In this document: in pieces, positions 34,019 to 57,004 of the stretch
How positions within the stretch are numbered: position 1 is the first letter of the stretch
Layout: each line of letters starts with the position of its first letter
Virus record (IMG/VR): IMGVR_UViG_3300021399_000001
Location: 69,905-133,904 of that record
Strand: one strand, 5' to 3'
DNA from: a virus
Lineage: Duplodnaviria; Heunggongvirae; Uroviricota; Caudoviricetes
Length of the DNA stretch: 64,000 nucleotides
Made by a program: the position numbers and the translations under genes
Notes under the pieces: model-generated
The model's input: the letters and a program-made list of their open reading frames with translations, nothing else
What the model was told of the DNA's origin: nothing
Database searches by the model: none

Positions 34019-34021
34019 CTT

Positions 34022-34411: not shown

Positions 34412-34602
34412 AATTTATTTATGATGATAATTTGTATGATGCAATGAAAGACGTATATGATTATGCTTATCGTGTTTTCTTTGGAAAGGCTCCAATAGAT
34501 GTTATATATCGTATGAATTATGGCAACAAGGGAGCAGAGCAAAAAGTTTTACAGTATATTTGGGACACCTATATTGAACCGAAAGGAGAAAATAATGAGT
34601 AA
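34408..34602 (+). CDS. hypothetical protein
   Basis: 64-aa ORF; ATGA overlap with the upstream gene. Confidence 0.4.
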   Translation: MKFIYDDNLYDAMKDVYDYAYRVFFGKAPIDVIYRMNYGNKGAEQKVLQYIWDTYIEPKGENNE

Positions 34603-35185
34603 TATTTACTTTACAAGCGACACTCATTTTTCACATAATCGCGGCTTTCTTTATGAGCCACGCGGTTTTTCATCTATTGAAGAACATGATGAGACTATTA
34701 TAGAAAATTGGAATAAAGTAGTAAAACCAGAAGATATTGTTTTTCTTCTTGGTGATACTATGTTAAATAATAATGATAAAGGAATTGAATGTCTTAATAA
34801 GTTAAACGGCTCTATTTGGTTTATTCGCGGCAACCATGATTCAGGAGAGCGCATTTATCGTATTTATCATGAGTGTCCACATATTCATTTTTTAGAGGGC
34901 GGTTCTGAAAATTTTGCTACAATTGCTACAATTAAGAAATTTAATGGCTATAATGTATACTTATCACATTATCCAACTTACACCAGTTATATTGAAAATA
35001 TGGCGCCATTAAAGAAACATATGCTGAATTTTCATGGACATACACATTCAAAAAATAAGTTTTATCAAGATATTCCATTCATGTATAATGTAGCACTTGA
35101 CGCGCATAATAACGCGCCAGTATCTTTTGATGAAATTATTTCAGATATTGAAGCAAAAGCAAACGAATGTATTGCTATGCTATAA
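34595..35185 (+). CDS. calcineurin-like metallophosphoesterase
   Basis: ATG-34595 after AAAGGAGAAAATAATG (ORF track 34520). Motifs SDTHFSH, LGDTM, RGNHD and HGHTH. Confidence 0.65.
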   Translation: MSNIYFTSDTHFSHNRGFLYEPRGFSSIEEHDETIIENWNKVVKPEDIVFLLGDTMLNNNDKGIECLNKLNGSIWFIRGNHDSGERIYRIYHECPHIHFLEGGSENFATIATIKKFNGYNVYLSHYPTYTSYIENMAPLKKHMLNFHGHTHSKNKFYQDIPFMYNVALDAHNNAPVSFDEIISDIEAKANECIAML

Positions 35186-35285
35186 AGAAATATATTTATG
35201 CTAGCAGCTATCTTTTTATTAACATTATTATTAATTTGGCTATGGTGCATAATACAAGATATAAATAATATATGAGAGGGGAAAC

Positions 35286-35495
35286 ATGGGACTACTCAAA
35301 CGAGGGCTTCGCGCAAAAACTAATCTAATAGATGATTATTTAGTAGATTTTACAACAGAAGAATTAAATGATATTTTAAAACAAGCGCCTCTCTTAATTA
35401 AAAATAAAGAAGAAAAATCAGAGATTATAAATTTAACTACCTCGCGCGAATTAAATCATTTAAAAAGACGAATGTGGAAATTCTATCATAAATAA
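35286..35495 (+). CDS. hypothetical protein
   Basis: RBS GAGAGGGGAAAC; 69 aa. Confidence 0.45.
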   Translation: MGLLKRGLRAKTNLIDDYLVDFTTEELNDILKQAPLLIKNKEEKSEIINLTTSRELNHLKRRMWKFYHK

Positions 35496-35524
35496 TTGAC
35501 TCTCTACTAAAATTATGATATAAT
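35496..35524 (+). promoter_or_regulatory. consensus promoter copy 4
   Basis: TTGACT, 17-nt spacer, TGATATAAT. Confidence 0.65.
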
Positions 35525-35659
35525 TATTATAATGAAAGGAGAGAAGATGAATGTGTTGGTTAGTGTTGATTGGTTTATTCAGCTTGATTCTCATTTTCTG
35601 TAAAATCTATGATAAAATTGAAGATTATATCTGGCAAAAAAGATGGAGGAATTCATAAC

Positions 35660-36070
35660 ATGAAATCATCAAAGAATTGGTTTATTTATGCTTATCCCGA
35701 AATGTACGGCGGACTTCATGGTATGTATGCCTATGAAGTAGCGAGCGGTATATCTTACGACGAAGCGTGCGATTGGGGCCATGAGCTTGCCTATGAAACT
35801 GTAGAATCTTATTTGCGCGCAGATGAAATTTATTCTACTGATGATTTTATGGACGAATTTTATGACGGCGCAGAATGGGATGACCGCTATGAGGATGAAT
35901 ATTGGGACGCCTATGAAGAAGTCATGCAGGAGCAATGCGCTTTTGAAGTTTGGCCTTTTAAGGATGGAGTAACTATTGCTGACTATGAAAAGTGGCAAAA
36001 GGAAAATATGGAGCCTCATGATTTCATTGAGCGCTATTGCCGCCAACTCACAGAGGAAGATTATGTGTAA
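35660..36070 (+). CDS. hypothetical acidic protein
   Basis: ATG-35660 after GGAGGAATTCATAAC (ORF track 35609). A 36-codon hydrophobic upstream ORF at 35550-35657 may also be translated. Confidence 0.5.
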   Translation: MKSSKNWFIYAYPEMYGGLHGMYAYEVASGISYDEACDWGHELAYETVESYLRADEIYSTDDFMDEFYDGAEWDDRYEDEYWDAYEEVMQEQCAFEVWPFKDGVTIADYEKWQKENMEPHDFIERYCRQLTEEDYV

Positions 36071-36269
36071 TTTAGAGTCTCAACTCAAACAAGCAACAGA
36101 TTGTATTGATTTACTTTTAAAAAGAATAGACGATTTAAATGATGATCTTTCTGAATCACAACAATTAAATCGTTATTATGAAGATAGAATAATGGAACTA
36201 GAACAAGAAAAATCTGCTCTTTATTTACAATTAGAAGAATGGGAAAATTCCTACTACAAACTTATTTGA
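36063..36269 (+). CDS. coiled-coil protein (68 aa)
   Basis: ATG-36063 after GAGGAAGATT (ORF track 35976). Confidence 0.45.
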   Translation: MCNLESQLKQATDCIDLLLKRIDDLNDDLSESQQLNRYYEDRIMELEQEKSALYLQLEEWENSYYKLI

Positions 36270-36294
36270 CTTTTTTCGTAAATTCTGTTATAAT
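36266..36294 (+). promoter_or_regulatory. consensus promoter copy 5 (upstream of the Ro60-like gene)
   Basis: TTGACT, 17-nt spacer, TGTTATAAT. Confidence 0.65.
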
Positions 36295-36358
36295 ATTATT
36301 GTAAGAAAGAAACGAGCCCTAGTCCAGGGCTGACCAAATGAAAAGGAGAAAATAAATT

Positions 36359-44965: not shown

Positions 44966-44971
44966 CCATAT

Positions 44972-45056: not shown

Positions 45057-45060
45057 CCAT

Positions 45061-45089: not shown

Positions 45090-45119
45090 AATTATAGTAA
45101 AGTGAAAGGAATTAATAAA

Positions 45120-46385: not shown

Positions 46386-46389
46386 ATAT

Positions 46390-46418
46390 TTGACTTTTTC
46401 TTCAAATCATGCTATAAT
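46390..46418 (+). promoter_or_regulatory. consensus promoter copy 16 (drives the structured RNA and HNH gene)
   Basis: TTGACT, 17-nt spacer, TGCTATAAT; leader TATTATAGTAAAGAGGAAAGG. Confidence 0.6.
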
Positions 46419-46439
46419 TATTATAGTAAAGAGGAAAGG

Positions 46440-47140
46440 AAGTAGATACTCTATTTAATAAAATGGTTGAACCAAGTGAAGAAGAGCTAACCACTCTGCT
46501 TGGGCTATCTGAATAACAGCCATACGATTTAGCGGGATACTACTAAATCGCGGCCGCAAAATCAGTAATGATTAGCGATAAAGAGAAACTCTGAATGTTA
46601 AGGGTAGGCGCTTGGTTATCCGCTAACAAAAGCACGATTCCTCACGGCATCATAATAGAAGTCAAGCGTTAAAAGCGTAGACTGAATCCTAGTTAGGGTT
46701 TAGCTGGTGACTTGTATCAAACCTAGGAAAGACCAACAAGATGCTATTGTCGTTGAAACCTAGAAATAGGCTATAAGTGAGGTTTACGGTAAAAGTAGCT
46801 TAAAGTGACAACAAGTTCTTGGTATTAGAACAAATAATACATATTTGATTTATTATTAAAGAATTTGCTGAATGGTTTAAGTGAAATTTGGGAGTAGACA
46901 ATCTCCCCGTTGCTAGTCGAAAGACAGGGTGAAGAAGTTAAAGGGTCGCTACCTTTGGCTCAGCCTTCATCTTCAACGTGGCTGAATATGTTTAGAAGGA
47001 TAATACAAGTACGGCGAAGGTCGCAACGGTTTTATTAAATAGGGTATTTGCCCTAAACTTTAAGGTAGCATTGGAGTAATTAACCAATGAGACAAAGATG
47101 CTCCTACATCGGCTTAAAGTTTAAAATATAATCATAGGAG
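46440..47140 (+). ncRNA. structured noncoding block upstream of the second HNH endonuclease (candidate ribozyme or ncRNA)
   Basis: ~700 nt with no ORF. Follows promoter copy 16. Contains ACTACTAAATCGCGG (similar to the group I intron R element GACTAAAT) and a downstream TAGTCG. Confidence 0.3.
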
Positions 47141-47148
47141 TGATTTAT

Positions 47149-47559
47149 ATGAAAGCAGGAGATAAAAGAATTTGCCAAATTTGTGGCACAGAATTTGAAA
47201 TTATTGATAAAGGATGGAGTAGAAAATACTGTTATAAATGCTCTCCAAAAATTGATAAATCTGGAAAAACTTTGACATACGCGGAAAATATTACGATAAA
47301 ACGTCGTGCTATTAAAGAAATGTTAATTGCTTATAAAGGTGGAAAATGTGAACGATGTGGCTATGATAAGTGTAATAGAGCCTTAGAATTTCATCATATT
47401 AACCCACAAGAAAAAGATTTTGGTATTTCTAACAATATCAATCGTAATATTGAAGAATTAAAATCAGAAGTTGATAAATGTATTCTTTTATGTTCCAATT
47501 GCCATGCCGAAGTTCATCAAGAACTTTATGATAAAGGTCTTTTAAAAGAAGAATTTTAG
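47149..47559 (+). CDS. HNH endonuclease with N-terminal zinc finger
   Basis: ATG-47149 after TAGGAGTGATTTAT. CQICGTEF...CYKCSP is a zinc ribbon. EFHHINP...LLCSNCHAEVH is the HNH motif. Confidence 0.7.
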   Translation: MKAGDKRICQICGTEFEIIDKGWSRKYCYKCSPKIDKSGKTLTYAENITIKRRAIKEMLIAYKGGKCERCGYDKCNRALEFHHINPQEKDFGISNNINRNIEELKSEVDKCILLCSNCHAEVHQELYDKGLLKEEF

Positions 47560-47678
47560 GCGGATTCGCTCAGTGGTTGAGCAGTCGGCTGGTTGGATAG
47601 AAATAGTCCTCGTTGAGTGCAAGACTCAAATCCAGCACCATTAACCGACCTAGGGGAGTTCAATTCTCTCATCCGCCG
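47559..47678 (+). tRNA. tRNA (anticodon GGT? Thr-like) with a 49-nt insertion in the anticodon loop
   Basis: Acceptor GGCGGAT/ATCCGCC (perfect), D-arm GCTC-AGTGGTT-GAGC, T-arm GGGAG-TTCAATT-CTCTC, CCA encoded. Anticodon-stem strands GTCGG (47584-47588) and CCGAC (47645-47649) are separated by 56 nt. Confidence 0.45.
47590..47643 (+). other. minihelix-like element nested in the anticodon loop of the preceding tRNA
   Basis: GCTGGTT then an 18-nt spacer then TTGAG-TGCAAGA-CTCAA then ATCCAGC-A-CCA. The T-loop variant TGCAAGA resembles the TGCAAAT loops seen elsewhere. Confidence 0.35.
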
Positions 47679-47961
47679 CCATAGTCACGTAGAGGACTTA
47701 TTCTCTATGCTTGCTCAATGTCCAACTTATGTGAACGCGCGAAGTCACATAAGAGAGTCAACCCTTCCGAAGTACGAAGGAACCCCTAAAATGGTCTGTG
47801 GGGATAAACGGCATCATGAACCGTCTAATGTAGTTGACAAAGAGTATAGGTTCGTTAGGCTCCTAAGAAAAGCCTATCACCATCACGATAGCAAATAAGT
47901 GAATAAACGGATACGCGGTTAGCTGACCTTAAAGCTATTCTAATCTAGAGGAGAATAAAAT

Positions 47962-48501: not shown

Positions 48502-48514
48502 GCCACTCCATTGT

Positions 48515-48587
48515 GGGCCTATAGTTCAGCGGCTAGAATGTCCGGTTGTCTCCCGGAAGATCGCAGGTTCAAATCCTGTTAGGCTCG
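48515..48587 (+). tRNA. tRNA-Asp (anticodon GTC)
   Basis: Acceptor GGGCCTA/TAGGCTC, anticodon stem TCCGG/CCGGA with loop TTGTCTC (unusual U37), T-arm GCAGG-TTCAAAT-CCTGT, CCA encoded. Confidence 0.55.
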
Positions 48588-48679
48588 CCAGTTTGGTGCT
48601 TATAGTTTCGACCATTTAAAACTCGAAACTAATTTTAGACTCAATCAGCAATTATTTACTTGCATGTGGGGCCGGAAGT

Positions 48680-48735
48680 ATTGGTTTGACTCCAGTTCTC
48701 TCCGCCATATGGGGAGATAGTGTAACGATAGCACG
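48680..48735 (+). other. permuted tRNA-like halves: T-arm + TCTCTCC-G-CCA, then tat linker, then GGGGAGA + D-arm
   Basis: ATTGG-TTTGACT-CCAGT then TCTCTCC G CCA at 48680-48707. GGGGAGA-TA-GTGT AACGATA GCAC at 48711-48735. The acceptor strands are mutually complementary. Confidence 0.4.
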
Positions 48736-48759
48736 CCGTATAGTATGAGTCTAGTATAG

Positions 48760-48833
48760 CTGGGTGTAGCGCAGTTTGGTAGCGTGCTAGATTTGGGATC
48801 TAGAGGCCGTGAGTTCGAATCTCACCACCCAGA
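48760..48833 (+). tRNA. tRNA-Pro (anticodon TGG)
   Basis: Acceptor CTGGGTG/CACCCAG, anticodon stem CTAGA/TCTAG with loop TTTGGGA, T-arm GTGAG-TTCGAAT-CTCAC. No encoded CCA. Confidence 0.6.
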
Positions 48834-48887
48834 CTTCTTAACCGGGTTTGAAGATTATCCCAATTGTAAAATCTTCCCCTTTCTTTC

Positions 48888-48916
48888 TTGACTTTTTCTA
48901 GAATTTTTGATATAAT
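48888..48916 (+). promoter_or_regulatory. consensus promoter copy 17
   Basis: TTGACT, 17-nt spacer, TGATATAAT. Confidence 0.6.
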
Positions 48917-48946
48917 AAATATATCAAAGGAAAGGAAATAAATAAT

Positions 48947-49174
48947 ATGGATAAGAAAGAATTGTCCGCGCAAGCAACCAAGGCTGAATTTGTTAAGTCT
49001 ATTCATCATTGGTTAATGAATACGCTTAAACAAAATGGTAAAGAAGAATATAGTGATTGTTTTACTATTGAAGGTTCTAGTATTATGTGCCAACTGCCCG
49101 CGGATTATTTTAATCTGTACTCTATTCCTGCGAATACTAAAATTGAAATGAAATTTATTTCTAAGAAATCTTAA
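48947..49174 (+). CDS. hypothetical protein
   Basis: RBS AAAGGAAAGGAAATAAATAAT. Downstream of promoter copy 17. Confidence 0.5.
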   Translation: MDKKELSAQATKAEFVKSIHHWLMNTLKQNGKEEYSDCFTIEGSSIMCQLPADYFNLYSIPANTKIEMKFISKKS

Positions 49175-49210
49175 AGTTTTAAGCCGTTACAGCAATCTTT
49201 TTTATAAGTG

Positions 49211-49275
49211 GTTAATTTATTTTGATTGAGAAGCAAAATGATAGATGGTTCAAGTCCATCACGATTAAAATTAAC
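49211..49275 (+). other. three-arm tRNA-like element (closing stem + hairpin + T-arm), no CCA
   Basis: GTTAATTT...AAATTAAC closing stem enclosing ATTTTG-attgagaag-CAAAAT and GATGG-TTCAAGT-CCATC. Confidence 0.3.
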
Positions 49276-49385
49276 GGCTTAGTATTATTATAAGAGACAA
49301 GGCACATGCAGCAATTACTTTTATAATTACAAAATATAGATATTGGACAGTATATTAAAGTAAATTATTAGTGCCTTGAATTTAT

Positions 49386-49457
49386 GCCGGCGTGGCGCAA
49401 CGGTAGCGCAATCGCCTTGTAAGCGATAGGTTGTGGGTTCGATTCCCTCCGCCGGCT
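49386..49457 (+). tRNA. tRNA-Thr (anticodon TGT)
   Basis: Acceptor GCCGGCG/CGCCGGC, D-arm GCGC-AACGGTA-GCGC, anticodon stem ATCGC/GCGAT with loop CTTGTAA, CCA encoded. Confidence 0.65.
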
Positions 49458-49479
49458 CCATAACAAAAAGGAGTTTACT

Positions 49480-49905
49480 ATGAGATTTTTCGCTAAGAAG
49501 AAATTAAATCCAAATTCAAGTTTTGTTCCACCTTCAGTTGAAAAGAAATGCGAACATAAATTTCAAGATTTCCCATGGTATTTAACTTGGGATATACAAT
49601 ATAATCGTTACATGATTAAAGTAATTGAACCTTATGTTTGTATCTTTTGCGGTGAAAGACGTGACAAAGTTTTGGCCTCTTATACAGGTACAAATTATAA
49701 AGAGGGTGACAAACTTTTAAACGAACTCCGAAAACGTTTTGATAATCACATTAAATATCAAGAAGAAGTAGAAGATATGATAAATGATATGCTGCTTGTA
49801 GACCCAGAATATTTAAAGTGGTATCACTTATTACGCGAACAACAAGACCCTTCTACATCGCGCCCACAAGCTAATTTTAATAAAAGTCCAGAATTGAAAT
49901 TATAA
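49480..49905 (+). CDS. hypothetical protein
   Basis: RBS AAAAAGGAGTTTACT; 141 aa. Confidence 0.5.
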   Translation: MRFFAKKKLNPNSSFVPPSVEKKCEHKFQDFPWYLTWDIQYNRYMIKVIEPYVCIFCGERRDKVLASYTGTNYKEGDKLLNELRKRFDNHIKYQEEVEDMINDMLLVDPEYLKWYHLLREQQDPSTSRPQANFNKSPELKL

Positions 49906-49924
49906 TTAATAGGCACACACAGCA

Positions 49925-50004
49925 ACTTACATAGATAATCTATGAGTCATCGGTTCGAGCCCGATTATGCAAGCCAAAATTTTGCGTATCGCCCAGTCGG
50001 TAGG
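49925..50004 (+). other. minihelix-like element ending TATGCAA-G-CCA, then aaatt linker, then tRNA 5' half (TTGCGTA + D-arm GCCC-AGTCGGTA-GGGC)
   Basis: TTACATA then CATAGATaATCTATG hairpin then ATCGG-TTCGAGC-CCGAT then TATGCAA G CCA at 49925-49974. TTGCGTA-TC-GCCC... at 49980 onward. Both 5' 7-mers pair with TATGCAA. Confidence 0.4.
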
Positions 50005-50030
50005 GCAATAGAAAATAATGTGCCTAGATG

Positions 50031-50101
50031 ATGGGGACTAACCTAATGGAAGGGTCTTCGGCTCTGACCCGAAGTGTGATAGTTCAATTCTATCGTCCCC
50101 A
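50031..50101 (+). tRNA. tRNA-Gln (anticodon CTG)
   Basis: Acceptor TGGGGAC/GTCCCCA, anticodon stem TTCGG/CCGAA with loop CTCTGAC, T-arm GATAG-TTCAATT-CTATC, CCA encoded. Confidence 0.6.
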
Positions 50102-50107
50102 GCCATA

Positions 50108-50180
50108 TGGGAGTGTAGCTCAGTAGGGAGAGCACTAGACTTTTAATCTAGGCGTCGAGGGTCCGATTCCCTCCACTCTC
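50108..50180 (+). tRNA. tRNA-Lys (anticodon TTT)
   Basis: Acceptor GGGAGTG/CACTCTC, anticodon stem CTAGA/TCTAG with loop CTTTTAA, T-arm GAGGG-TCCGATT-CCCTC, CCA encoded. Confidence 0.6.
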
Positions 50181-50193
50181 ACCAATTATAATA

Positions 50194-50281
50194 TGCGGTA
50201 TTAGCGTAGAGGCCGAACGCGGGAGTTTGCTAAACTCTGTCGATCTTCAGTGATCCGAAGGTTCGAATCCTTCATGCCGCG
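50194..50281 (+). tRNA. tRNA-Ser (anticodon GCT), class II
   Basis: Acceptor GCGGTAT/ATGCCGC, anticodon loop TTGCTAA, 17-nt variable arm, T-arm GAAGG-TTCGAAT-CCTTC, CCA encoded. Confidence 0.65.
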
Positions 50282-50504
50282 CCAAGTGTGGACAGTAGGC
50301 TTGGAAGCAGCCACCTGATAATGAGTCTTTAATTTTTCCATCTGTGCGAAATGTATTATAGGCTACGTTTGTTATAATGCCCTATAAGTATGATGTGCAG
50401 ATGGATAATAGAAATATGAAGTTTGGCGTAAAAGCACACCACAAATATTGAGCTGGCCAGAGTAGCGTGCAGAAAGCTCAAGAGAATAAACACGGGGTTA
50501 CTAC

Positions 50505-50612
50505 ACAATGCGGTGGCGGAACAGGTAGACGCTACACATAAGATATTGGAATCGTCGCTGAAAAAGTGCTGGCATTTTGGAAACAATATCATGTAAGGTG
50601 CAAATCCTTACC
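50505..50612 (+). ncRNA. atypical ~108-nt tRNA-like gene with TGCAAAT T-loop (second of this kind)
   Basis: D-arm-like GGCG GAACAGGTAGA CGCT. An internal 7-bp stem GATATTG...CAATATC encloses 38 nt. T-arm TAAGG-TGCAAAT-CCTTA followed by CCCGCAT. Approximate boundaries. Confidence 0.3.
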
Positions 50613-50775
50613 CGCATTTTTAATTTAAAAGTTATTATGAATTTGTGCTAATATAGATTAATTGGTAAATCACCGTCATATGATAAAGGAGATGCGCGTT
50701 CGAAACTCGCTATTGGCCCGAGTTTGATACACTCGGTTATGTATCCGTTTGCCGACGCCGTTATTCGTCGGATAT

Positions 50776-50846
50776 GCGCCATTGGTGTAACGGTAACATA
50801 GGTGCCTTCCAAGCATCTGTTGTGGGTTCGAGTCCCATATGGCGCT
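50776..50846 (+). tRNA. tRNA-Gly (anticodon TCC)
   Basis: Acceptor GCGCCAT/ATGGCGC (perfect), anticodon stem GGTGC/GCATC with loop CTTCCAA, T-arm GTGGG-TTCGAGT-CCCAT, CCA encoded. Confidence 0.65.
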
Positions 50847-50935
50847 CCAGGATGCTTTAGATAGATTCAGCAATTATACATCTCTTGCATTGAGGCCTTC
50901 GGAATCATCCACCGATTGTATTCTATCTAGTATAT

Positions 50936-51008
50936 AGGCGTGTAGCCAAGCGGTTAAGGCACATGGCTTTGACCCATGCATTCGCTGGTTCAAATCCAGC
51001 CACGCCTG
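50936..51008 (+). tRNA. tRNA-Gln (anticodon TTG)
   Basis: Acceptor AGGCGTG/CACGCCT, anticodon stem CATGG/CCATG with loop CTTTGAC, T-arm GCTGG-TTCAAAT-CCAGC, CCA encoded. Confidence 0.6.
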
Positions 51009-51112
51009 CCAATTTTAGACGCCATTGCGCCACAACAACAGCAATTATTTTGTAGCTCCATTTTATTTTTTTATTTATAAGGCGTCTAGTAAATATTCGA
51101 GGAGGTTATCGG

Positions 51113-51427
51113 ATGAATACAGATATTTTAGATTTTATCGCTCGCAGATTTCCTATTACAAATGGAGACACATCTGACTGGATGGGCAAAAATTGTTACT
51201 ATTTCGCGCGCATACTTAAATCTAGATTTAAGGGAGAAATTTGGTACGATTTAGTAGATGGACATTTTTTATTTAAGCGTGGAGATTATTTTTTTGATTG
51301 GACTGGTATTAGAACTGACTATAATTGGGATAAGCCTGAAACAGTTGATAATTTAGTCCGCTGGTCTGATTATAAGAAAGCCGACCCAGTACATTATGAT
51401 AGAATTGTGAGGGATGTAATAGAATGA
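51113..51427 (+). CDS. hypothetical protein
   Basis: RBS CGAGGAGGTTATCGG; 104 aa. Confidence 0.5.
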   Translation: MNTDILDFIARRFPITNGDTSDWMGKNCYYFARILKSRFKGEIWYDLVDGHFLFKRGDYFFDWTGIRTDYNWDKPETVDNLVRWSDYKKADPVHYDRIVRDVIE

Positions 51428-51672
51428 GTAAGTTCCTATCCAATATTAAAGATTTAAGTGCTTTTATTGAAGCAATTAAGGAATGCAAGAATGATGTATT
51501 CCTTCTCAAGAATGATGGCAGCGAACAATTTAATCTAAAAAGTTCATTATCTGCCTACATTGCTTTGGGAAGGCTTGCGGATGAACACGGAGATGAATAT
51601 GAAATCTTTTGTAATTCAGCCGCGGATGAATCAAAACTTTTAAAGTTTTTTTATGAACGTGACGCCCGCTAA
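51424..51672 (+). CDS. hypothetical protein
   Basis: ATGA overlap with the previous gene; 82 aa. Followed by a terminator. Confidence 0.45.
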   Translation: MSKFLSNIKDLSAFIEAIKECKNDVFLLKNDGSEQFNLKSSLSAYIALGRLADEHGDEYEIFCNSAADESKLLKFFYERDAR

Positions 51673-51690
51673 TGCGGGCGATTTTTTTAT
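51658..51690 (+). terminator. rho-independent terminator
   Basis: GACGCCCGC-taat-GCGGGCG stem followed by ATTTTTTTAT. Confidence 0.7.
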
Positions 51691-51708
51691 ATATGTGTGG
51701 TGAAATAG

Positions 51709-54525
51709 ATGTCTAAAAAATTAATTTCTGGAAAAAATTTAAAATATAAATCTTCTAATATTCAACGACAATTTAACTTTATGAATTTTGGTAATTTATA
51801 CTATTATCCAGGATTTAGTACAAATTTCTTTTACTTTAATTCTTTAATGTCTAATTATGAGAGAAACCCTCCAAATCCGATGTATGCTCAAAAAGCACAT
51901 ATAATAGGTTCAGGGGCTTTAACAAAATTGTCTAATATTCCAGGCATAGGAACACAACAAGAAGCGAAAAATACTTTTCTACTTGATCAAATAACACAAA
52001 TTTTAAGTATTTTAAATTTAGCTGTTGAACAAGAAAGAGCAAATGAACTAAAATTTATAGATGATAAAATAGCTATGTTAAGAAATAGTATAGATCCTAA
52101 ATATTATAAAAAAAATCAAGACCTTGCTGCTATTGAGCACTTACTTTCACAATTAAAATCAGATGATGGAAGTATAAATTATATGGCTTTGATAGCTTTA
52201 CTTAACACAATAGAACAAGGATTTGAAAATTCTAAAGGAATTTTTGAATTTGAAATGCAACACTTATTAGATTTAGATGTAGCTGTTAAAAAAAATAGAG
52301 CCGCATTAGAAAATCAAATAAGAGGTCTAATGAAAACAGAACGATTTCGAAATAAACCTTTAGAAGATCAAGAAACTATTGTCCAAAAGGCTCTAGAAAA
52401 AAGAAATAGAATAAGGGTAAATGCTTATTTAAAACAAGGACATTTAAAAAATATACCAAGTTTTAAAAAATATATGGCTAAAATGACAACCGCAGATTAT
52501 AAAATTGCTGATTGGATTTCAAAAGAAGTCCAAAATGTATTAGATAATAATTATAAGTTATGGGCAAATTTAATACAAGCTAACAATTTAACAAGAAACG
52601 GATATCAAACATTAACAGAACAAATTCGTTCAACAATTATTAATTCTGTCGCTGCTTTTGCGGCAGATCATCAAGCAGAAATTCTAAAAGACGCACTAGA
52701 TAAGTTAAACGTGGATGGATTTTGCAATGAATTAATTAATAGTTATAACATATCAATTAATACACAAATTAATAACGTTCCAGAAGATTTTGGTATTCAA
52801 GAAAATAAACTAAAATTATTCCAAGAACGAATTGCAGGTAATTTAAATACTTTTCATTCCGCAGAAGGAATTTATCAAGCTTTAGAAGAAGTTATGACAA
52901 AAATGAAAAGAAAATCTCAAGATTCTTACACACCAGAAGAACAACTAATAGATGCTACATTAGGAAAAAATACAGTTACAAATTTTTACGAAGATACAAT
53001 TGAACCCGTAAATAATTTAATAAAACAGTTTGAACGTATTATTGAATTAGAAAATAAGAATAAAGCTGCTGTTACGATAAATAGAAATAATGAAACTCGT
53101 GATCTCGAAGCTACGATCGTAATTGACGGCGAAAAAACAATCAAATGGAATTTAAGTGAACAATTTTCTCAAGCTCACTTAAATCTTTATCAACGCAATA
53201 ACGTTCCTAAAACATTTAAAAATATAGTAACTAATATGAAACGCGCGGCAGGTAAAAAAATTCGTGATGAAGTTGTCAACATAATCAGCGCTACTCATTC
53301 TCAAGCTGCACATGATTTAGAAAGAGATATGGCCCATGCATTACAACAAATTAAAGTAGTAGTAAAAGGACCAGACATTTCTGAAATACTTCAAGGATTT
53401 GATAAAACCTGGTCTATTAAATTATGGACAGGACAAGATTTGGTTAAAAACGATGTAATAGAAATTGTCGTGGGCATGCCAAATGGAAGACAAACAAGTA
53501 TGACAATAAATAATCTTTTAAAAAATAATTTAGATGCTATAAATTTTTCAAAATACAACAAGCATTTTTTTCAAGGGTACTCTGATGTTTTCCAGGAATT
53601 TCAATCACAATTCCAGCAAGCCATACAAAAAGATATGGTAGAAACTAGAAATTCTAAAGAATTTACTAAGTATGATGCTATGGCTAAACGTTTTTTTGAA
53701 ACACAAAAAATCAAAGAAGAAATGATACAAAAAATAGAAAATCTATACGGAGAATATGAACAAGAATTATCCAATAAAATTAAAGATGAGAAAAAACGTG
53801 ATGCAGCTATTAAAAACATTCGAGATGCTGCAATGAAATTTATTTCTTCCATTAAAGAAACACTTTATGTTAGCAGCACAATGAAAACTTATAGTACATA
53901 TCAAAATGATTTAGGATTCACCGGCGGCAGTTTAGGAGCAAATATTGATTCTCAAATAGATTCATTTGATCAAATATTTAGCGCGGCAGGTATTCCTATA
54001 GAACCATCTTTAAAAGAATGGTTAAAATTTGCCATATTAAATTGTTCGTCCGTTAGCGTAATTGGTGAAAGAAATAAAGATTTTATTGAAAATTATTTGG
54101 GTGGACTAGCTGTTTTTGCACTATTTAATGAAGGTGGTGCTGAGTTACAATTATTAGCACAACAATTGCCAAATCAAGAATTAATTACTACAAATAATGT
54201 TATGCATCTATATAGATTGAATGGCGTTTATTATCCTGGCTCTTTTGTCTTAAAACAAGTAATAAACAATTTAAATGCAGTATCTGAACAAATTAATCAA
54301 ATAAAATCATTATCCGCTAATAAAAATATAATGATTTATAACCCAGCTTCTTATTCAATGCTACCAAATGGAAAAAACTCAAAGCAACAAAACGTGACCG
54401 ATCCTTGGGGACAAGTTGGCAGCGAAGTAAGCAGCGGAGTAAAAATTAAAGTGCTATTCCTTGCAGGATTATTAGATGTTGTAAAAGGTCTGCATGCACA
54501 AATGAATTTTGAACTTCCAACTTAA
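51709..54525 (+). CDS. large K/N/Q-rich alpha-helical protein of unknown function (938 aa)
   Basis: Single long ORF with a coiled-coil-like composition. No recognisable catalytic motif. Confidence 0.5.
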   Translation: MSKKLISGKNLKYKSSNIQRQFNFMNFGNLYYYPGFSTNFFYFNSLMSNYERNPPNPMYAQKAHIIGSGALTKLSNIPGIGTQQEAKNTFLLDQITQILSILNLAVEQERANELKFIDDKIAMLRNSIDPKYYKKNQDLAAIEHLLSQLKSDDGSINYMALIALLNTIEQGFENSKGIFEFEMQHLLDLDVAVKKNRAALENQIRGLMKTERFRNKPLEDQETIVQKALEKRNRIRVNAYLKQGHLKNIPSFKKYMAKMTTADYKIADWISKEVQNVLDNNYKLWANLIQANNLTRNGYQTLTEQIRSTIINSVAAFAADHQAEILKDALDKLNVDGFCNELINSYNISINTQINNVPEDFGIQENKLKLFQERIAGNLNTFHSAEGIYQALEEVMTKMKRKSQDSYTPEEQLIDATLGKNTVTNFYEDTIEPVNNLIKQFERIIELENKNKAAVTINRNNETRDLEATIVIDGEKTIKWNLSEQFSQAHLNLYQRNNVPKTFKNIVTNMKRAAGKKIRDEVVNIISATHSQAAHDLERDMAHALQQIKVVVKGPDISEILQGFDKTWSIKLWTGQDLVKNDVIEIVVGMPNGRQTSMTINNLLKNNLDAINFSKYNKHFFQGYSDVFQEFQSQFQQAIQKDMVETRNSKEFTKYDAMAKRFFETQKIKEEMIQKIENLYGEYEQELSNKIKDEKKRDAAIKNIRDAAMKFISSIKETLYVSSTMKTYSTYQNDLGFTGGSLGANIDSQIDSFDQIFSAAGIPIEPSLKEWLKFAILNCSSVSVIGERNKDFIENYLGGLAVFALFNEGGAELQLLAQQLPNQELITTNNVMHLYRLNGVYYPGSFVLKQVINNLNAVSEQINQIKSLSANKNIMIYNPASYSMLPNGKNSKQQNVTDPWGQVGSEVSSGVKIKVLFLAGLLDVVKGLHAQMNFELPT

Positions 54526-54612
54526 CAAAATTATTAAGAAAACAGCTATATTTATTACTTATTATATGAGAAATGATTTTCATTTCATCTTATCCACGGA
54601 GGGGGAAGACCA

Positions 54613-55128
54613 ATGGGAATACAAGCCCAACAAATATGGGAGTGGATAGGTAAAAACTTATGGCAAATAATTGTTCTTGGCTCTTTATTTATTCAAATTG
54701 CTCCCATAAAAATAAATCCTTGGTCTGCCTTAGTCAAATGGATTGGAAAATTAATTACCGGTGATGCGTGCACAAAAATTGATGGCTTAGTCGAAAAAGT
54801 AAATAAAATTGATGGATTAGTCCAATCGGTAAATAATCTTAAAACCGACATAAACAATATCAATCAAGAAGTAATGACAAATGAAAAAGATCGTATACGC
54901 TGGGAAATTTTAGATTTTGCTAATTCATGTCATAATGGCAGAAAACACACTCGTGATGAATATCGGCATATAGATAAATTAAATCATAAGTATATTCAAC
55001 TATTAGAACAAACCGATGACAGTAATGGTGAGTTTGAAGCTGAATATGATTATATTAAAGAACTATACGCAGAACGTATTCGTAAAAATGATTTCTTAGA
55101 AAACAGGGAGGGAATATCAAATGACTAA
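54613..55128 (+). CDS. XhlA-like membrane protein (possible lysis accessory)
   Basis: RBS GGAGGGGGAAGACCA. N-terminal TM segment WIGKNLWQIIVLGSLFIQIAPIKINPWS followed by a coiled coil. Immediately upstream of a holin-like gene. Confidence 0.35.
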   Translation: MGIQAQQIWEWIGKNLWQIIVLGSLFIQIAPIKINPWSALVKWIGKLITGDACTKIDGLVEKVNKIDGLVQSVNNLKTDINNINQEVMTNEKDRIRWEILDFANSCHNGRKHTRDEYRHIDKLNHKYIQLLEQTDDSNGEFEAEYDYIKELYAERIRKNDFLENREGISND

Positions 55129-55330
55129 TTTTAAACAATGGATCGCAGCCGCAGGCGTTCGCGCGCTAAAAACTGTCGCTCAAACAGCAGTAGCAACTAT
55201 AGGTACTAGCGCTGTTATTTCAGAAGTTAATTGGGTAATGGTAGCATCTGCTTCTGTACTCGCAGGCATATTAAGTTTATTAACTAGTATTGCTGGCTTA
55301 CCAGAACTAAAAGAAAAGGAAGAAGCTTAA
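55121..55330 (+). CDS. holin (LL-H-like small two-TM protein)
   Basis: 69 aa. KQWIAAAGVRALKTVAQTAVATIGTSAV followed by a second TM segment and a charged C-terminus KEKEEA. Confidence 0.5.
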   Translation: MTNFKQWIAAAGVRALKTVAQTAVATIGTSAVISEVNWVMVASASVLAGILSLLTSIAGLPELKEKEEA

Positions 55331-55352
55331 TGCTTCTTCCTTGACTTTTTTT
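55322..55352 (+). terminator. rho-independent terminator fused to the next promoter
   Basis: GGAAGAAGC-ttaat-GCTTCTTCC stem followed by TTGACTTTTTTTAT. Confidence 0.65.
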
Positions 55353-55369
55353 ATATTTTATTATATAAT
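55341..55369 (+). promoter_or_regulatory. consensus promoter copy 18 (upstream of the RNase H operon)
   Basis: TTGACT, 17-nt spacer, TATAAT. Confidence 0.6.
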
Positions 55370-55396
55370 ATTATTATAAGAAAAGGAGGATATTCT

Positions 55397-55897
55397 GTGG
55401 AAAAGCGTAGTAAAGAAAAAATTATACCACTCGAAATTTATACTGATGGTTCATTAAAGAAAATGGGACAGCAATCTACATTTGGTGGTTGGGCTTTTTA
55501 TGCGCTAAGAGAAGGAAACGACTTTTATCATAAATCTGGAAGCGTTCCAATGACTACTAACCAACGCATGGAATTAAAAGCTATTCTTGAAGCATTAAAG
55601 TATGCACAGAATATCCGCCAAAAAGGTGAAAAAGTAATTATTTATAGTGATTCTGCTTATGCCATTAATTGCTATAATCAAGAATGGTATAATAATTGGC
55701 GAACCAATGGATGGCAAAATTCTAAAAAGCAGCCAGTAGCAAACCAAGATTTATGGATAGAAATTGTGCCTTTCTTTGATAATTTTTGGTATGATTTCCG
55801 AAAAGTTGAGGGGCATGCTGGTAATTACTGGAATGAGCGTTGTGACCAACTTGCCCAATTAGAAGCAGAAACGCTAAAAATACATTGGCGAGGTTAA
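55397..55897 (+). CDS. rnhA: ribonuclease HI
   Basis: GTG start after AAAAGGAGGATATTCT. IYTDGS, TNQRMELKAILEAL, IYSDSAYAIN and GHAGNYWNERCDQLA are the RNase H catalytic motifs. Confidence 0.75.
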   Translation: MEKRSKEKIIPLEIYTDGSLKKMGQQSTFGGWAFYALREGNDFYHKSGSVPMTTNQRMELKAILEALKYAQNIRQKGEKVIIYSDSAYAINCYNQEWYNNWRTNGWQNSKKQPVANQDLWIEIVPFFDNFWYDFRKVEGHAGNYWNERCDQLAQLEAETLKIHWRG

Positions 55898-55898
55898 T

Positions 55899-56240
55899 AT
55901 GGATACTAGTATTTATGAAGTAACACGAGAAGATTATAAAGGTTTTGTAAACCAAATTAAACCTGAATGTCGTGACGTAAAGATTGAGAAAATCGGCGAA
56001 ACTCATGTCGCGGCTAAAATTTATAGTAAAAAGACTGGGAAATGTCTCTGTAGTAGAGTAGCATATTCTGCTGATTATGGAGACCCAGACCCAGAGCGCT
56101 ATTACATTTTTGAAATGCCCGACAATGATGAACGTTGCGCCGCTATTCCAGTGCAGCGTATCACGCTCACTTCAAAAGAAGAAGTTCAAGCATTTTTTGA
56201 TGCAGTAAAGAAATTACAAGAGGAACAAAGCAATGGTTGA
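55899..56240 (+). CDS. hypothetical protein
   Basis: 113-aa ORF in an operon with the RNase H gene. Confidence 0.45.
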   Translation: MDTSIYEVTREDYKGFVNQIKPECRDVKIEKIGETHVAAKIYSKKTGKCLCSRVAYSADYGDPDPERYYIFEMPDNDERCAAIPVQRITLTSKEEVQAFFDAVKKLQEEQSNG

Positions 56241-56445
56241 ATTATTTCCTAACGTGCCTCAATACATAAGAGATTTAGCAAAATATTGGGTTGACTTAGC
56301 ACTAAAACAAAAAAATATTTTTGAAGGTGTAAAAATGGTATCCGATTTTGCTAATTCTTGTATTAATGAAGAGGATAAAGAATTTGTTGATTTTTATTTT
56401 AGATTAAGATTGGAGCAATTAAAGAATGAAAATAATAATGATTAG
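56233..56445 (+). CDS. hypothetical protein
   Basis: 70-aa ORF with overlapping start. Confidence 0.4.
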   Translation: MVELFPNVPQYIRDLAKYWVDLALKQKNIFEGVKMVSDFANSCINEEDKEFVDFYFRLRLEQLKNENNND

Positions 56446-57004
56446 CGGGAAAAGCATGTCCGGTAAAGACACCGTGGCAAATATTATGAAAAGAAATCTA
56501 GAGAATGCTGGAAAGCGTGTATTAATTATGCACTTTGCAGATTTAGTTAAATATTATGCAACACAATACTTTAATTGGAATGGTGAAAAGGATGAAGCAG
56601 GCCGCAGTCTATTACAAGAAATTGGAACAACTGTTATGCGCGGCCGTTACCCAGAGTATTGGGCTGAAATTATTGGAAAATTTATTGACGCCTATACTAT
56701 TCCAGAGCATAGTTTTTTTGATTACATTCTAATTCCTGATTGGCGTTTTATAAATGAATATGAAATTGTTTATGATTATGCTGCCATTCAAAATAATAAA
56801 ACAATTACTATTCGTGTAATAAGACATGATGAAAATGGCTTAGAGTGGGAAAATCCCAACATGACCACTGACCAATTGAAACACATCAGTGAGTGTGAAC
56901 TTGATAATTTCGCATTTAACTGGATTATAGAGAATTGTAAGGGACTTGAAGATCTAGAAGGTAGCGTAGATGAAATTCTAAAAGAGGAGCATTTTTATGA
57001 TTGA
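56426..57004 (+). CDS. P-loop deoxynucleoside monophosphate kinase (T4 gp1-like)
   Basis: MKIIMISGKSMSGKDTVA Walker A at the N-terminus, as in the T4 dNMP kinase. Confidence 0.55.
   Translation: MKIIMISGKSMSGKDTVANIMKRNLENAGKRVLIMHFADLVKYYATQYFNWNGEKDEAGRSLLQEIGTTVMRGRYPEYWAEIIGKFIDAYTIPEHSFFDYILIPDWRFINEYEIVYDYAAIQNNKTITIRVIRHDENGLEWENPNMTTDQLKHISECELDNFAFNWIIENCKGLEDLEGSVDEILKEEHFYD

What the first reader, a model, noticed from the sequence alone, without database searches (positions are those of the whole stretch)
34595..57004. Dispersed RNA-repair enzyme set (metallophosphoesterase, RNA ligase, P-loop kinase) next to a ~35-gene tRNA complement
An Rnl-type ligase (39689-40339; KxDG, EGYG, KxK motifs), a stand-alone calcineurin-like phosphoesterase (34595-35185) and a P-loop kinase (56426-57004) supply the three activities of Pnkp/Rnl tRNA-repair systems: end healing by 2',3'-phosphatase and 5'-kinase, then sealing. 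Phages use these to counter host anticodon nucleases. Together with the very large tRNA set this suggests heavy investment in tRNA supply and repair. The same ligase could also process the split or insertion-bearing tRNA-like genes described above.
Basis: inference. Interest (0 to 1): 0.6.

Follow-up and report, generated by a model that had tools for sequence, protein, structure and literature searches.

The report
Phage RNA ligase repair cluster
A large, tRNA-rich phage carries a compact set of genes with matching promoters (a Ro60-like RNA-binding ring, a cREC cyclic-phosphate-processing protein, a short Rnl2-type RNA ligase and an optional metallophosphoesterase) that most likely mends or joins broken tRNAs, while the distant "kinase" is an ordinary dNMP kinase of the DNA-replication operon.

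Summary
The three ORFs exist and belong to the stated superfamilies. The ligase motifs KxDG, EGYG and KxK are present and invariant in homologues.

The proposed three-enzyme Pnkp/Rnl pathway is only partly supported.
- The kinase (56426-57004) is a T4 gp1-type dNMP kinase. It lies in a conserved RNase H-dNMP kinase-DNA ligase-ClpP-PhoH operon that persists in relatives with no RNA ligase nearby.
- No polynucleotide kinase is in the window.

- A Ro60/TROVE+vWA ring protein lies at 36359-37891.
- A cREC (cyclic-phosphate-processing receiver) protein lies at 38810-39196.

Ro-like, cREC and ligase form a triad conserved in 11 related viral contigs. The phosphoesterase is a variable accessory, present in 4 of 7 informative loci. 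Each unit has a copy of one near-consensus promoter. cREC-ligase and TROVE links in phage RNA repair have already been predicted computationally, so this is a new variant of a known, untested kind.

In passing, two tRNA genes here and more in relatives carry precise tRNA-like or minihelix inserts (7-bp stem, discriminator, CCA) inside the anticodon, and empty-site alleles exist. The ligase might rejoin such tRNAs. That idea is untested and has counter-evidence.

The parts
34595..35185 (+). Calcineurin-type metallophosphoesterase (196 aa), a variable accessory of the cluster. Predicted to remove 2'/3' phosphates; activity untested.
   Evidence: It matches Pfam Metallophos_2 and Metallophos and phrog_547, and all five motifs are intact. 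The best PDB sequence match is Aquifex aq_1665, 1xm7. It is present in L002, L005, L006 and L013 but absent in L007, L009 and L010. Homologues lie next to an Rnl1 ligase plus AAA_33 kinase in phage PHB05 and near a PNK in YB07.
36266..36294 (+). Promoter TTGACT-N17-TATAAT in front of the Ro60-like gene.
   Evidence: It is one of 16 exact matches on the + strand, against 0.05 expected.
36359..37891 (+). Ro60/TROVE-like ring protein with a vWA domain (510 aa; DUF2828+DUF7788). Predicted RNA-binding platform.
   Evidence: It matches Pfam DUF7788 at 5e-34, DUF2828 at 1e-28 and phrog_850 'RNA-binding protein' at 7.5e-116. The AF2 model has pLDDT 78.8. The ten best Foldseek PDB hits are all Ro60/Rsr/TROVE, including Thermus phage phiLo Ro60. 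The MIDAS residues D309-T-S311-x-S313 are invariant.
37905..37934 (+). Terminator-like hairpin with a T-run after the Ro60-like gene.
   Evidence: Found by the consensus scan.
37939..37967 (+). Promoter TTGACT-N17-TATAAT in front of the small-ORF and cREC unit.
38810..39196 (+). cREC (cyclic-phosphate-processing receiver) domain protein (128 aa). Predicted 2',3'-cyclic phosphodiesterase; activity untested.
   Evidence: It matches Pfam PF20274 at 4.5e-18 over profile positions 2-87 of 88, and phrog_1479. D12, D13, D69-H70-D71-L72-G73, D88, K91 and H106 are invariant in 13 homologues. It is present in every locus of the clade that has the ligase.
39365..39393 (+). Promoter TTGACT-N17-TATAAT in front of orf39427 and the ligase.
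39427..39672 (+). Small ORF (81 aa) of unknown function, in the same predicted transcription unit as the ligase.
   Evidence: It is conserved directly upstream of the ligase in L008-L012 at 44-51% identity. It has no Pfam or PHROG match.
39689..40339 (+). Short Rnl2-superfamily RNA ligase (216 aa). It consists of the nucleotidyltransferase domain only, with K44 as the adenylylation lysine.
   Evidence: It matches PF09414 at 3.3e-18 and phrog_548. Motifs I, Ia, III, IIIa, IV and V are invariant. The AF2 model has pLDDT 91. The best Foldseek hit is T4 Rnl2 (2hvr, E 2e-11), followed by NgrRnl and TbREL1.
40336..40364 (+). Promoter overlapping the ligase stop codon. It drives a 230-nt leader and two tRNA-Met genes (40597-40750).
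56426..57004 (+). dNMP kinase (192 aa). Examined because the finding names it, and judged NOT part of the RNA module.
   Evidence: It matches phrog_139 at 6e-29 and Pfam DNMK at 34.1 bits against a 27.1-bit cut-off. T4 gp1 (1dek) is the best PDB match, including the QxxGT and PDxR motifs. Its end overlaps the start of the ATP-dependent DNA ligase (56997-58124). It lies downstream of the promoter at 55341 and of RNase H. The same operon is found in L020, L027 and L028, which have no RNA ligase nearby.

Best explanation
The real unit is a compact block at about 34.6-40.3 kb, not a trio spread over 22 kb. It has four components, and several of them carry copies of the same near-consensus promoter.
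- A Ro60/TROVE-like ring protein, inferred to hold damaged or misfolded RNA.
- A cREC protein, predicted to open 2',3'-cyclic phosphate ends.
- A short Rnl2-type ligase, which adenylylates K44 and seals a 3'-OH/5'-phosphate break.
- In some genomes, a metallophosphoesterase, predicted to remove the remaining 2'/3' phosphate.

The likely substrates are tRNAs, both the phage's own 32 and the host's, cut by host anticodon-type nucleases or during processing.

What is shown: family membership, intact catalytic motifs, the Ro60 fold, conserved synteny and the shared promoter.

What is inferred: every enzymatic activity and the substrate.

The 5'-kinase step has no assigned enzyme in the window. The P-loop protein at 56426 is a dNMP kinase of the replication operon.
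For: - Families and motifs are established.
- The ligase fold is closest to T4 Rnl2.
- The DUF2828/DUF7788 protein has the Ro60 fold. Its ten best PDB hits are all Ro60, Rsr or TROVE.
- Ro-like, cREC and ligase occur together in all 11 related IMG/VR loci that cover the region, even though cREC identity is only 48-77%.
- cREC and ligase are both absent near the Ro-like gene in three other relatives, L020, L027 and L028. Their presence therefore co-varies.
- In L019 cREC lies 0.9 kb upstream of a 58%-identical Ro-like gene, in a different gene order.
- In L014 a 42%-identical ligase lies 6.5 kb from a Ro-like gene.
- Streptomyces phage Faust, an unrelated tRNA-rich phage, has a Ro-like protein, the same short ligase, a metallophosphoesterase, a second RNA ligase and an annotated polynucleotide kinase scattered through its tRNA region.
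- Copies of the TTGACT-N17-TATAAT promoter precede the Ro-like, cREC and ligase units. There are 16 copies in the window against 0.05 expected.
- PMC7824862 reports operonic links of cRec to several RNA ligase families, and ROT/TROVE proteins in phage RNA repair.
- PMC9503650 describes ligase-cREC-kinase-(calcineurin) neighbourhoods.
Against: - No activity has been tested for this ligase family, for cREC or for this phosphoesterase family.
- There is no polynucleotide kinase in the 64-kb window. Walker A motifs occur only in the dNMP kinase, PhoH and two unlikely ORFs. Repair of 5'-OH ends is therefore unexplained.
- The phosphoesterase family occurs in 1823 phage records, against 76 for the ligase, and it is missing from 3 of 7 informative relatives.
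- Homologues of the short ligase in a crAss-like phage, a Campylobacter phage and a podovirus lie among DNA-replication genes and have no cREC nearby.
- The synteny evidence comes mostly from one phage clade, so shared ancestry inflates it.
- No Y-RNA-like partner was found.
Confidence: 0.55

Rival explanations
1. The phosphoesterase, the ligase and the P-loop kinase together form a T4 Pnkp/Rnl-like pathway, in which the kinase phosphorylates 5'-OH RNA ends.
For: All three ORFs exist with intact motifs. The literature mentions a 'nucleotide kinase' in some ligase-cREC neighbourhoods. Polynucleotide activity of a gp1-like kinase cannot be excluded by sequence alone.
Against: The kinase matches dNMP kinase families and not PNK or AAA_33. 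It overlaps the DNA ligase gene in an operon headed by RNase H. That operon is conserved in L020, L027 and L028, where no RNA ligase, cREC or phosphoesterase lies within 10 kb of the Ro-like gene. Phages with a bona fide trio use an AAA_33/PNK-type kinase placed next to the ligase.
Confidence: 0.08
2. tRNA splicing. The ligase, perhaps helped by the Ro-like protein, rejoins the halves of phage tRNAs whose anticodon is interrupted by a nested tRNA-like element. The nested element would be cut out by tRNA end-processing enzymes: RNase P at its 5' end, and a cut after CCA at its 3' end. That would leave 3'-OH and 5'-phosphate ends, so no kinase would be needed.
For: - Two interrupted tRNAs lie 2 and 7 kb downstream of the ligase, at 42223-42342 and 47559-47681.
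- Each insert is exactly a 7-bp stem, an internal hairpin, a discriminator and CCA.
- Removing the insert in silico gives canonical Glu(UUC) and Asn(GUU) tRNAs. Asn has no other gene in the window.
- Empty-site alleles fix the boundaries to the nucleotide.
- Stems show compensatory changes between relatives.
- This model would explain why no kinase is present.
Against: - Relatives L020, L027 and L028 have interrupted tRNAs but no ligase within 10 kb of the Ro-like gene.
- Streptomyces phage Faust has the short ligase and 29 uninterrupted tRNAs in the 49-kb region examined.
- The enzyme that would cut after CCA is not identified.
- Rnl2-type enzymes prefer nicked duplexes to loop breaks (established knowledge, from memory).
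- There is no expression or splicing data.
Confidence: 0.15
3. The genes are neighbours without a common pathway. The short ligase would serve DNA replication, for example by sealing RNA-DNA junctions or nicks. cREC and the phosphoesterase would degrade nucleotide or ADP-ribose-derived defence signals. The Ro-like protein would work with a host exonuclease such as PNPase.
For: Ligase homologues lie among DNA polymerase, RNase H and exonuclease genes in cr116_1, Campylobacter phage WX1 and podovirus MW202615. cREC is also predicted to process cyclic ADP-ribose derivatives. The phage phiLo Ro60 assembles with Y-like RNAs and host PNPase (PMC12135203). The Ro-like gene occurs alone in L020, L027 and L028. 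Each gene has its own promoter.
Against: The window already has an ATP-dependent DNA ligase in the replication operon. cREC and the ligase are gained or lost together in the clade, with 11 loci having both and 3 having neither. The ligase fold is closest to RNA-specific enzymes. The cluster sits inside the tRNA and ncRNA zone, not in the replication module.
Confidence: 0.17

Closest known systems
cRec-RNA ligase neighbourhoods and ROT/TROVE proteins in phage RNA repair (comparative-genomic predictions; PMC7824862, PMC9503650)
   Same: The domain families are the same: cREC next to an RNA ligase, an occasional calcineurin-like phosphoesterase, and a TROVE RNA-binding protein, all in tRNA-rich phages.
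   Different: Here the ligase is an Rnl2-type protein with only the nucleotidyltransferase domain. The Ro-like gene is part of the conserved block. No kinase, sirtuin, MazG, Nudix or 2H partner is adjacent. The described type-2 neighbourhood uses a T4 Rnl1-like ligase plus a kinase.
T4 Pnkp + Rnl1 tRNA repair against the PrrC anticodon nuclease (established knowledge)
   Same: The logic of healing RNA ends and then sealing them with an ATP-dependent, lysine-adenylylating ligase encoded by a phage.
   Different: There is no Pnkp here, neither its kinase nor its HAD phosphatase. The ligase is Rnl2-like, not Rnl1. Healing would fall to cREC and a metallophosphoesterase. The 5'-kinase step is unassigned.
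T4 Rnl2, Naegleria NgrRnl (Rnl5) and Trypanosoma REL1
   Same: They are the best structural matches, and all six nucleotidyltransferase motifs are shared.
   Different: The window protein has 216 aa. It lacks the Rnl2 C-terminal domain and the Rnl5 N-terminal domain. TM-scores normalised to the target are only 0.4-0.6.
Bacterial rsr-yrlBA-rtcBA RNA-repair operon (Salmonella; PMC7790460) and Ro60-Y RNA-PNPase complexes (PMC4201824, PMC12135203)
   Same: A Ro60-type ring protein is encoded beside an RNA ligase, in a setting rich in tRNA or tRNA-like RNA.
   Different: The ligase is ATP-dependent and Rnl2-like rather than RtcB. No RtcA or RtcR is present. No YrlA-like RNA was detected. The Ro-like protein belongs to the DUF2828 branch.
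T4 gp1 deoxynucleoside monophosphate kinase (PDB 1dek)
   Same: The window kinase shares the GxxxSGKDT P-loop and the QxxGT and PDxR motifs, and it lies in a nucleotide/DNA-metabolism operon.
   Different: Overall identity is low, and its substrate range is untested.

Membership tests
Rnl2-superfamily ATP-dependent RNA ligase (PF09414) | Nucleotidyltransferase motifs I (KxDG), Ia, III, IIIa, IV and V. | tested here: met
   K44-I-D46-G47, R64, E105, F128-D129, E185-G186 and K206/K208 are present and invariant in 40 homologues. Pfam gives 66.9 bits against a 27-bit cut-off.
Rnl2-superfamily ATP-dependent RNA ligase (PF09414) | Nucleotidyltransferase fold closest to RNA ligases rather than DNA ligases. 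| tested here: met
   The best Foldseek hits are T4 Rnl2, NgrRnl, TbREL1 and archaeal Rnl3. DNA ligases appear only from rank 31.
Canonical Rnl2 (T4 Rnl2 equivalog, TIGR02307) | A C-terminal domain following the nucleotidyltransferase domain, giving about 330 aa. | tested here: not met
   The protein ends at residue 216, just after motif V. The TIGR02307 score is 34 bits against a 197-bit cut-off, covering profile positions 22-223 of 326.
T4-type Pnkp/Rnl healing-and-sealing system | A polynucleotide 5'-kinase (PNK/AAA_33-type P-loop) encoded with the ligase. | tested here: not met
   The only candidate is a dNMP kinase 16 kb away in the replication operon. There is no other kinase-like P-loop in the window. 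The rest of the genome was not available.
T4-type Pnkp/Rnl healing-and-sealing system | A 2',3'-phosphate-removing enzyme linked to the ligase. | tested here: inconclusive
   A metallophosphoesterase with intact motifs lies 4.5 kb upstream, but it is present in only 4 of 7 informative relatives. It has no sequence match to known RNA-healing phosphatases in the PDB. Its activity is not testable here.
cREC (PF20274) | A divergent receiver domain with conserved acidic residues, found in an RNA-repair context and never with a histidine kinase. | tested here: met
   Pfam gives 66.2 bits against a 27-bit cut-off. D12, D13, D69 and D71 are invariant. It lies 0.5 kb upstream of an RNA ligase, and no histidine kinase is present in the window.
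cREC (PF20274) | Cyclic-phosphodiesterase activity. | not testable with these tools
   The activity is only predicted in the literature, which states that it remains experimentally uncharacterised.
Ro60/TROVE + vWA ring proteins | A HEAT-repeat ring plus a vWA domain with a MIDAS motif. | tested here: met
   The AF2 model matches phiLo TROVE (9kop), D. radiodurans Rsr (2nvo) and Xenopus and human Ro60 over more than 530 aligned columns. The DxSxS motif D309-S311-S313 is invariant.
Ro60/TROVE + vWA ring proteins | A partner Y RNA or YrlA-like RNA encoded nearby. | tested here: not met
   There is no Rfam YrlA or Y RNA hit at E<=1 in 27800-51800. No GNCGAAN0-1G motif occurs outside coding sequence or known RNAs.
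T4 gp1-type dNMP kinase (PF21448, phrog_139) | The family profile match plus motifs beyond the P-loop. | tested here: met
   DNMK scores 34.1 bits against a 27.1-bit cut-off, and phrog_139 scores 6e-29 over residues 1-187. The alignment to 1dek covers the P-loop and the QxxGT...PDxR region.

The most novel reading that the evidence does not exclude
This phage clade carries tRNA genes with a second tRNA, or a tRNA minihelix, nested precisely inside the anticodon. Each nested element is a 7-bp acceptor-like stem, a discriminator and CCA. The nested element would be released by ordinary tRNA end-processing. The short Rnl2-type ligase of this cluster would then rejoin the outer halves, which would have 3'-OH and 5'-phosphate ends. 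That would be protein-dependent tRNA splicing in a bacteriophage with no healing kinase. The reverse reading is also possible: the inserts could be genomic footprints of mature tRNAs mis-ligated into anticodon-nuclease breaks.
Probability: 0.15. Interest if true: 0.9.

Novelty: new variant of a known kind. Interest (0 to 1): 0.42.

Why it matters
The biological role of Rnl2-type ligases in phages has never been settled. The activities of cREC and of the DUF2828 Ro-like proteins are only predictions.

This cluster offers a small, conserved set of genes in which those predictions can be tested together, with a natural substrate pool of 32 phage tRNAs beside it.

The analysis also corrects an attractive but wrong assignment: the "kinase" is a replication enzyme. 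That leaves a concrete open question about how 5' ends are made ligatable, or whether the ligase works on ends that need no healing.

The tRNA-in-anticodon inserts seen in passing would be a new kind of gene arrangement if confirmed. They provide a candidate substrate of exactly that second type.

Tried and rejected
- Megablast of 34000-41000 against GenBank phages found nothing, so there is no close cultured relative.
- Sequence search of the Ro-like protein against the PDB found nothing. Only the fold search worked.
- I looked for a Y RNA or YrlA partner with Rfam at E<=1 and with the GNCGAAN0-1G motif. None was found.
- I looked for a hidden polynucleotide kinase with a Walker A scan of all frames, and with Pfam and PHROG scans of the small ORFs in and around the cluster. 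None was found.
- I tested whether the phosphoesterase resembles known RNA-healing phosphatases by PDB sequence search. The only match was the uncharacterised Aquifex aq_1665.
- I tested whether the ligase is exclusive to phages with interrupted tRNAs. It is not. Faust has the ligase and no interrupted tRNA in the 49-kb region examined, and L020, L027 and L028 have interrupted tRNAs with no ligase nearby.
- I considered that the 44-49-nt inserts are group I introns or known ribozymes. They are too short and have no Rfam hit.
- I considered a bulge-helix-bulge intron. The structure is instead a closed 7-bp stem with an ACCA tail.
- Conserved non-coding pieces at 40890-40985 and 42025-42100 gave unremarkable folding z-scores.
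- Three literature searches for nested, minihelix or short tRNA introns in phages found nothing relevant in the held library.

Full report
OBSERVATION

The three ORFs named in the finding are present on the + strand at the stated coordinates.

- The phosphoesterase (34595-35185) passes both Pfam metallophosphatase models and matches phrog_547 at 2e-46. It keeps all five metal-binding motifs.
- The ligase (39689-40339, 216 aa) matches PF09414 at 3.3e-18.
- In an alignment of 40 homologues at 66-91% identity, these residues are invariant, as are R64, F128-D129 and E185-G186.
- The homologue search reported more than 7900 clusters at E<=1e-5, and the 120 best listed are almost all 213-224 aa long. 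The protein is therefore a full-length member of a large family, not a fragment.
- The AlphaFold model (pLDDT 91) is closest to T4 Rnl2, then Naegleria NgrRnl and Trypanosoma REL1. DNA ligases rank far lower.
- The protein consists of the nucleotidyltransferase domain only. It lacks the C-terminal domain of Rnl2, and it scores far below the Rnl2 equivalog cut-off.
- ARAGORN finds 29 tRNAs. Adding a tRNA-Tyr seen by Rfam and two insert-bearing tRNAs brings the total to 32.

THE KINASE IS NOT PART OF THE SYSTEM

The P-loop protein at 56426-57004 is a dNMP kinase by every sequence test.

- It matches phrog_139 (deoxynucleoside monophosphate kinase) at 6e-29 over its whole length, and the Pfam DNMK model above its cut-off.
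- Its best PDB match is T4 gp1. The alignment covers the P-loop and also the family-specific QxxGT and PDxR stretches.
- Its phage homologues are annotated as dNMP kinases.
- Its end overlaps the start of an ATP-dependent DNA ligase (56997-58124). It lies downstream of RNase H (55397-55897) and of a promoter at 55341. The next promoter copy is at 60040, after ClpP and PhoH.
- The same order, RNase H, DNMK, DNA ligase, then ClpP and PhoH where the sequence extends, is found in three related contigs (L020, L027, L028). None of them has an RNA ligase, cREC or phosphoesterase within 10 kb of the Ro-like gene.
- A Walker A scan of all six frames found no other credible kinase in the window.
- Phages that do carry a complete healing and sealing set use an AAA_33/PNK-type kinase next to the ligase. 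In E. coli phage PHB05 the order is phosphoesterase, Rnl1-type ligase, AAA_33 protein. Streptomyces phage Faust has an RNA ligase and an ATPase annotated as polynucleotide kinase close together.

Two genes lie between the phosphoesterase and the ligase.

- The first (36359-37891, 510 aa) matches DUF2828 and DUF7788 and phrog_850 'RNA-binding protein' at 7.5e-116. Its model (pLDDT 78.8) matches Ro60/TROVE proteins in all ten best PDB hits. These include D. radiodurans Rsr, Xenopus and human Ro60, and the Ro60 of Thermus phage phiLo. The vWA MIDAS motif is invariant.
- The second (38810-39196, 128 aa) matches the cREC_REC family at 4.5e-18. It keeps an invariant acidic pocket of D12, D13 and D69-H70-D71.
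- The literature predicts that cREC opens 2',3'-cyclic phosphates and reports operonic links of cREC to several RNA ligase families (PMC7824862). It also states that the activity is untested (PMC9503650).

LINKAGE

- Fourteen IMG/VR loci carry a relative of the ligase.
- In all 11 loci of the close clade that cover the region, the Ro-like gene, cREC and the ligase occur in the same order. Identities are 71-92% for the ligase, 57-96% for the Ro-like protein and 48-77% for cREC.
- The phosphoesterase is present in four of these loci. It is absent in three that have enough upstream sequence, including L007, where its flanking small ORF is retained.
- In L019, cREC sits upstream of a 58%-identical Ro-like gene. 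In L014, a 42%-identical ligase lies 6.5 kb from a Ro-like gene.
- In L020, L027 and L028 the Ro-like gene is present without cREC or ligase nearby. Across the informative loci, cREC and ligase are thus present together or absent together, while the Ro-like gene is the older resident.
- Most of this evidence comes from one clade and is not phylogenetically independent.
- An independent case is Streptomyces phage Faust. Its tRNA region holds a Ro-like protein, the same short ligase, a metallophosphoesterase, a second ligase and a PNK.
- Against a fixed RNA role, the short ligase sits among DNA polymerase, RNase H and exonuclease genes in a crAss-like phage, a Campylobacter phage and a podovirus.

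EXPRESSION SIGNALS

- The window has 16 exact copies of TTGACT-N17-TATAAT, all on the + strand between 27822 and 60068. Chance would give 0.05.
- Copies lie directly in front of the Ro-like gene (36266), the cREC unit (37939), the ligase unit (39365), the tRNA-Met pair (40336), the ROOL RNA (46390) and the RNase H operon (55341).
- A terminator-like hairpin follows the Ro-like gene.
- The cluster genes are therefore separate units sharing one promoter type. This fits co-regulation but does not show it.

MECHANISM

The best-supported reading, at confidence 0.55, is an RNA-end repair module.

1. The Ro-like ring holds the damaged RNA.
2. cREC opens the cyclic phosphate.
3. The metallophosphoesterase, where present, removes the phosphate.
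4. The ligase seals the break through a K44-AMP intermediate.

All four activities are inferred from family membership and from the cited comparative-genomic work. The 5'-kinase step is unassigned. Either the kinase lies in the unseen two-thirds of the genome, or the host supplies it, or the ligase acts on breaks that already carry a 5'-phosphate.

COMPARISON WITH KNOWN SYSTEMS

- It works like the T4 Pnkp/Rnl1 pathway, but it fails that system's defining kinase test and uses different healing domains.
- It resembles the cREC-ligase neighbourhoods and the TROVE association already predicted for phages. It differs in ligase type, in the fixed Ro-like partner and in lacking kinase, sirtuin and MazG genes.
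- It parallels the bacterial rsr-rtcB operon, but RtcB is absent and no Y RNA was detected.
- I rate it a new variant of a known, still untested kind.

- Two tRNA genes carry inserts of 44 nt (42258-42301) and 49 nt (47592-47640) inside the anticodon.
- Each insert is exactly a 7-bp stem, an internal hairpin (T-arm-like in the first), a discriminator A and CCA.
- Removing the inserts gives canonical tRNA-Glu(UUC) and tRNA-Asn(GUU).
- Relatives carry the same design in Ile(UAU), Leu(UAA) and Gln(UUG). Their inserts are 47-77 nt, and the longest fold as cloverleaves.
- Empty-site alleles exist. L010 has the uninterrupted Glu gene. The window has the uninterrupted Ile(UAU) gene that is interrupted in L002, L006 and L007.
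- The stems show compensatory changes between relatives.
- Because a 7-bp acceptor stem directs RNase P (PMC4201824), excision by tRNA end-processing could leave 3'-OH/5'-P halves that a ligase could join without a kinase.
- This is a hypothesis only. Interrupted tRNAs occur in relatives with no ligase nearby. Faust has the ligase and no interrupted tRNA in the region examined.
- I found no description of such inserts in the held literature.

VERDICT

The ligase is a real RNA ligase in an RNA-repair setting. The kinase assignment is wrong, and the phosphoesterase link is weak.
- Interest is 0.42. The most novel reading not excluded is ligase-dependent rejoining of tRNAs split by nested tRNA-like inserts, with probability about 0.15.

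Noticed in passing
window 42223-42342 (insert 42258-42301) and 47559-47681 (insert 47592-47640); also L002:2699-2849, L006:14148-14282, L007:5290-5441, L009:11974-12093, L010:12402-12525, L020:8074-8218, L027:7714-7864, L028:2162-2304: tRNA genes are interrupted inside the anticodon by a nested tRNA-like element made of a 7-bp stem, a discriminator and CCA. The elements are 44-77 nt, and the longest fold as cloverleaves. Removing them in silico restores canonical Glu(UUC), Asn(GUU), Ile(UAU), Leu(UAA) and Gln(UUG) tRNAs. Empty-site alleles exist, namely L010:9638-9713 for Glu and window 30736-30812 for Ile, and the stems show compensatory changes. L027 and L028 were only flagged by ARAGORN and not analysed further. 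No description was found in the held literature.
   Followed up: partly
L007:5325-5401 (the insert within tRNA-Ile): At relaxed threshold ARAGORN reads this 77-nt nested element as a cloverleaf tRNA with anticodon CUA, which would be amber-suppressor-like. The 71-nt insert in L020 reads as Tyr(GUA)-like.
   Followed up: no
window 46448-47042 (+): A full-length ROOL RNA (Rfam RF03087, 331 bits) lies about 30 nt downstream of one of the repeated promoters (46390-46418), inside the tRNA zone.
   Followed up: no
window 44660-44756 (+) and 28222-28269 (+): A drum RNA (RF02958, 50.3 bits) and a DUF3800-XI RNA (RF02975, 64.5 bits) both score above their gathering thresholds. The second lies directly in front of the first tRNA of the array.
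   Followed up: no
window 27822-60068 (+), 16 sites: There are 16 exact copies of TTGACT-N17-TATAAT, often with an extended -10 TG, all on the + strand, against 0.05 expected by chance. They define one promoter class for the tRNA, ncRNA, small-gene and replication regions.
   Followed up: partly
window 41319-41795 and 47140-47559: Two HNH-type endonuclease genes (one HNH_3 plus NUMOD4, one HNH) lie just upstream of the two interrupted tRNA genes. The second ends at the first base of the interrupted tRNA-Asn.
   Followed up: no
window 40365-40596, 40751-41318 and 41796-42222: These long non-coding stretches flank the tRNA-Met pair and the HNH gene. They show patchy 75-99% conservation in relatives and have no Rfam match. 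Folding z-scores of two conserved pieces were unremarkable.
   Followed up: partly
window 29927-30010: This is a tRNA-Tyr(GUA) with a long variable arm. ARAGORN default misses it, but Rfam (42.9 bits) and ARAGORN at relaxed threshold find it.
   Followed up: yes
window 60252-62178: A nucleoside 2-deoxyribosyltransferase-like gene is followed by a xanthine/uracil permease-family gene (PF00860, 1e-61). A membrane nucleobase transporter is unusual cargo for a phage. A permease of the same family also appears in relative L028.
   Followed up: no
window 31526-32500; L024:17320-18240: An SPFH/Band 7 protein lies between the tRNA array and the repair cluster. Streptomyces phage Faust, which is unrelated, also has a Band-7-like gene inside its tRNA region.
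   Followed up: no
window 36001-38000: The Ro-like gene has markedly higher G+C than its neighbours (0.44 against 0.32-0.34).
   Followed up: no
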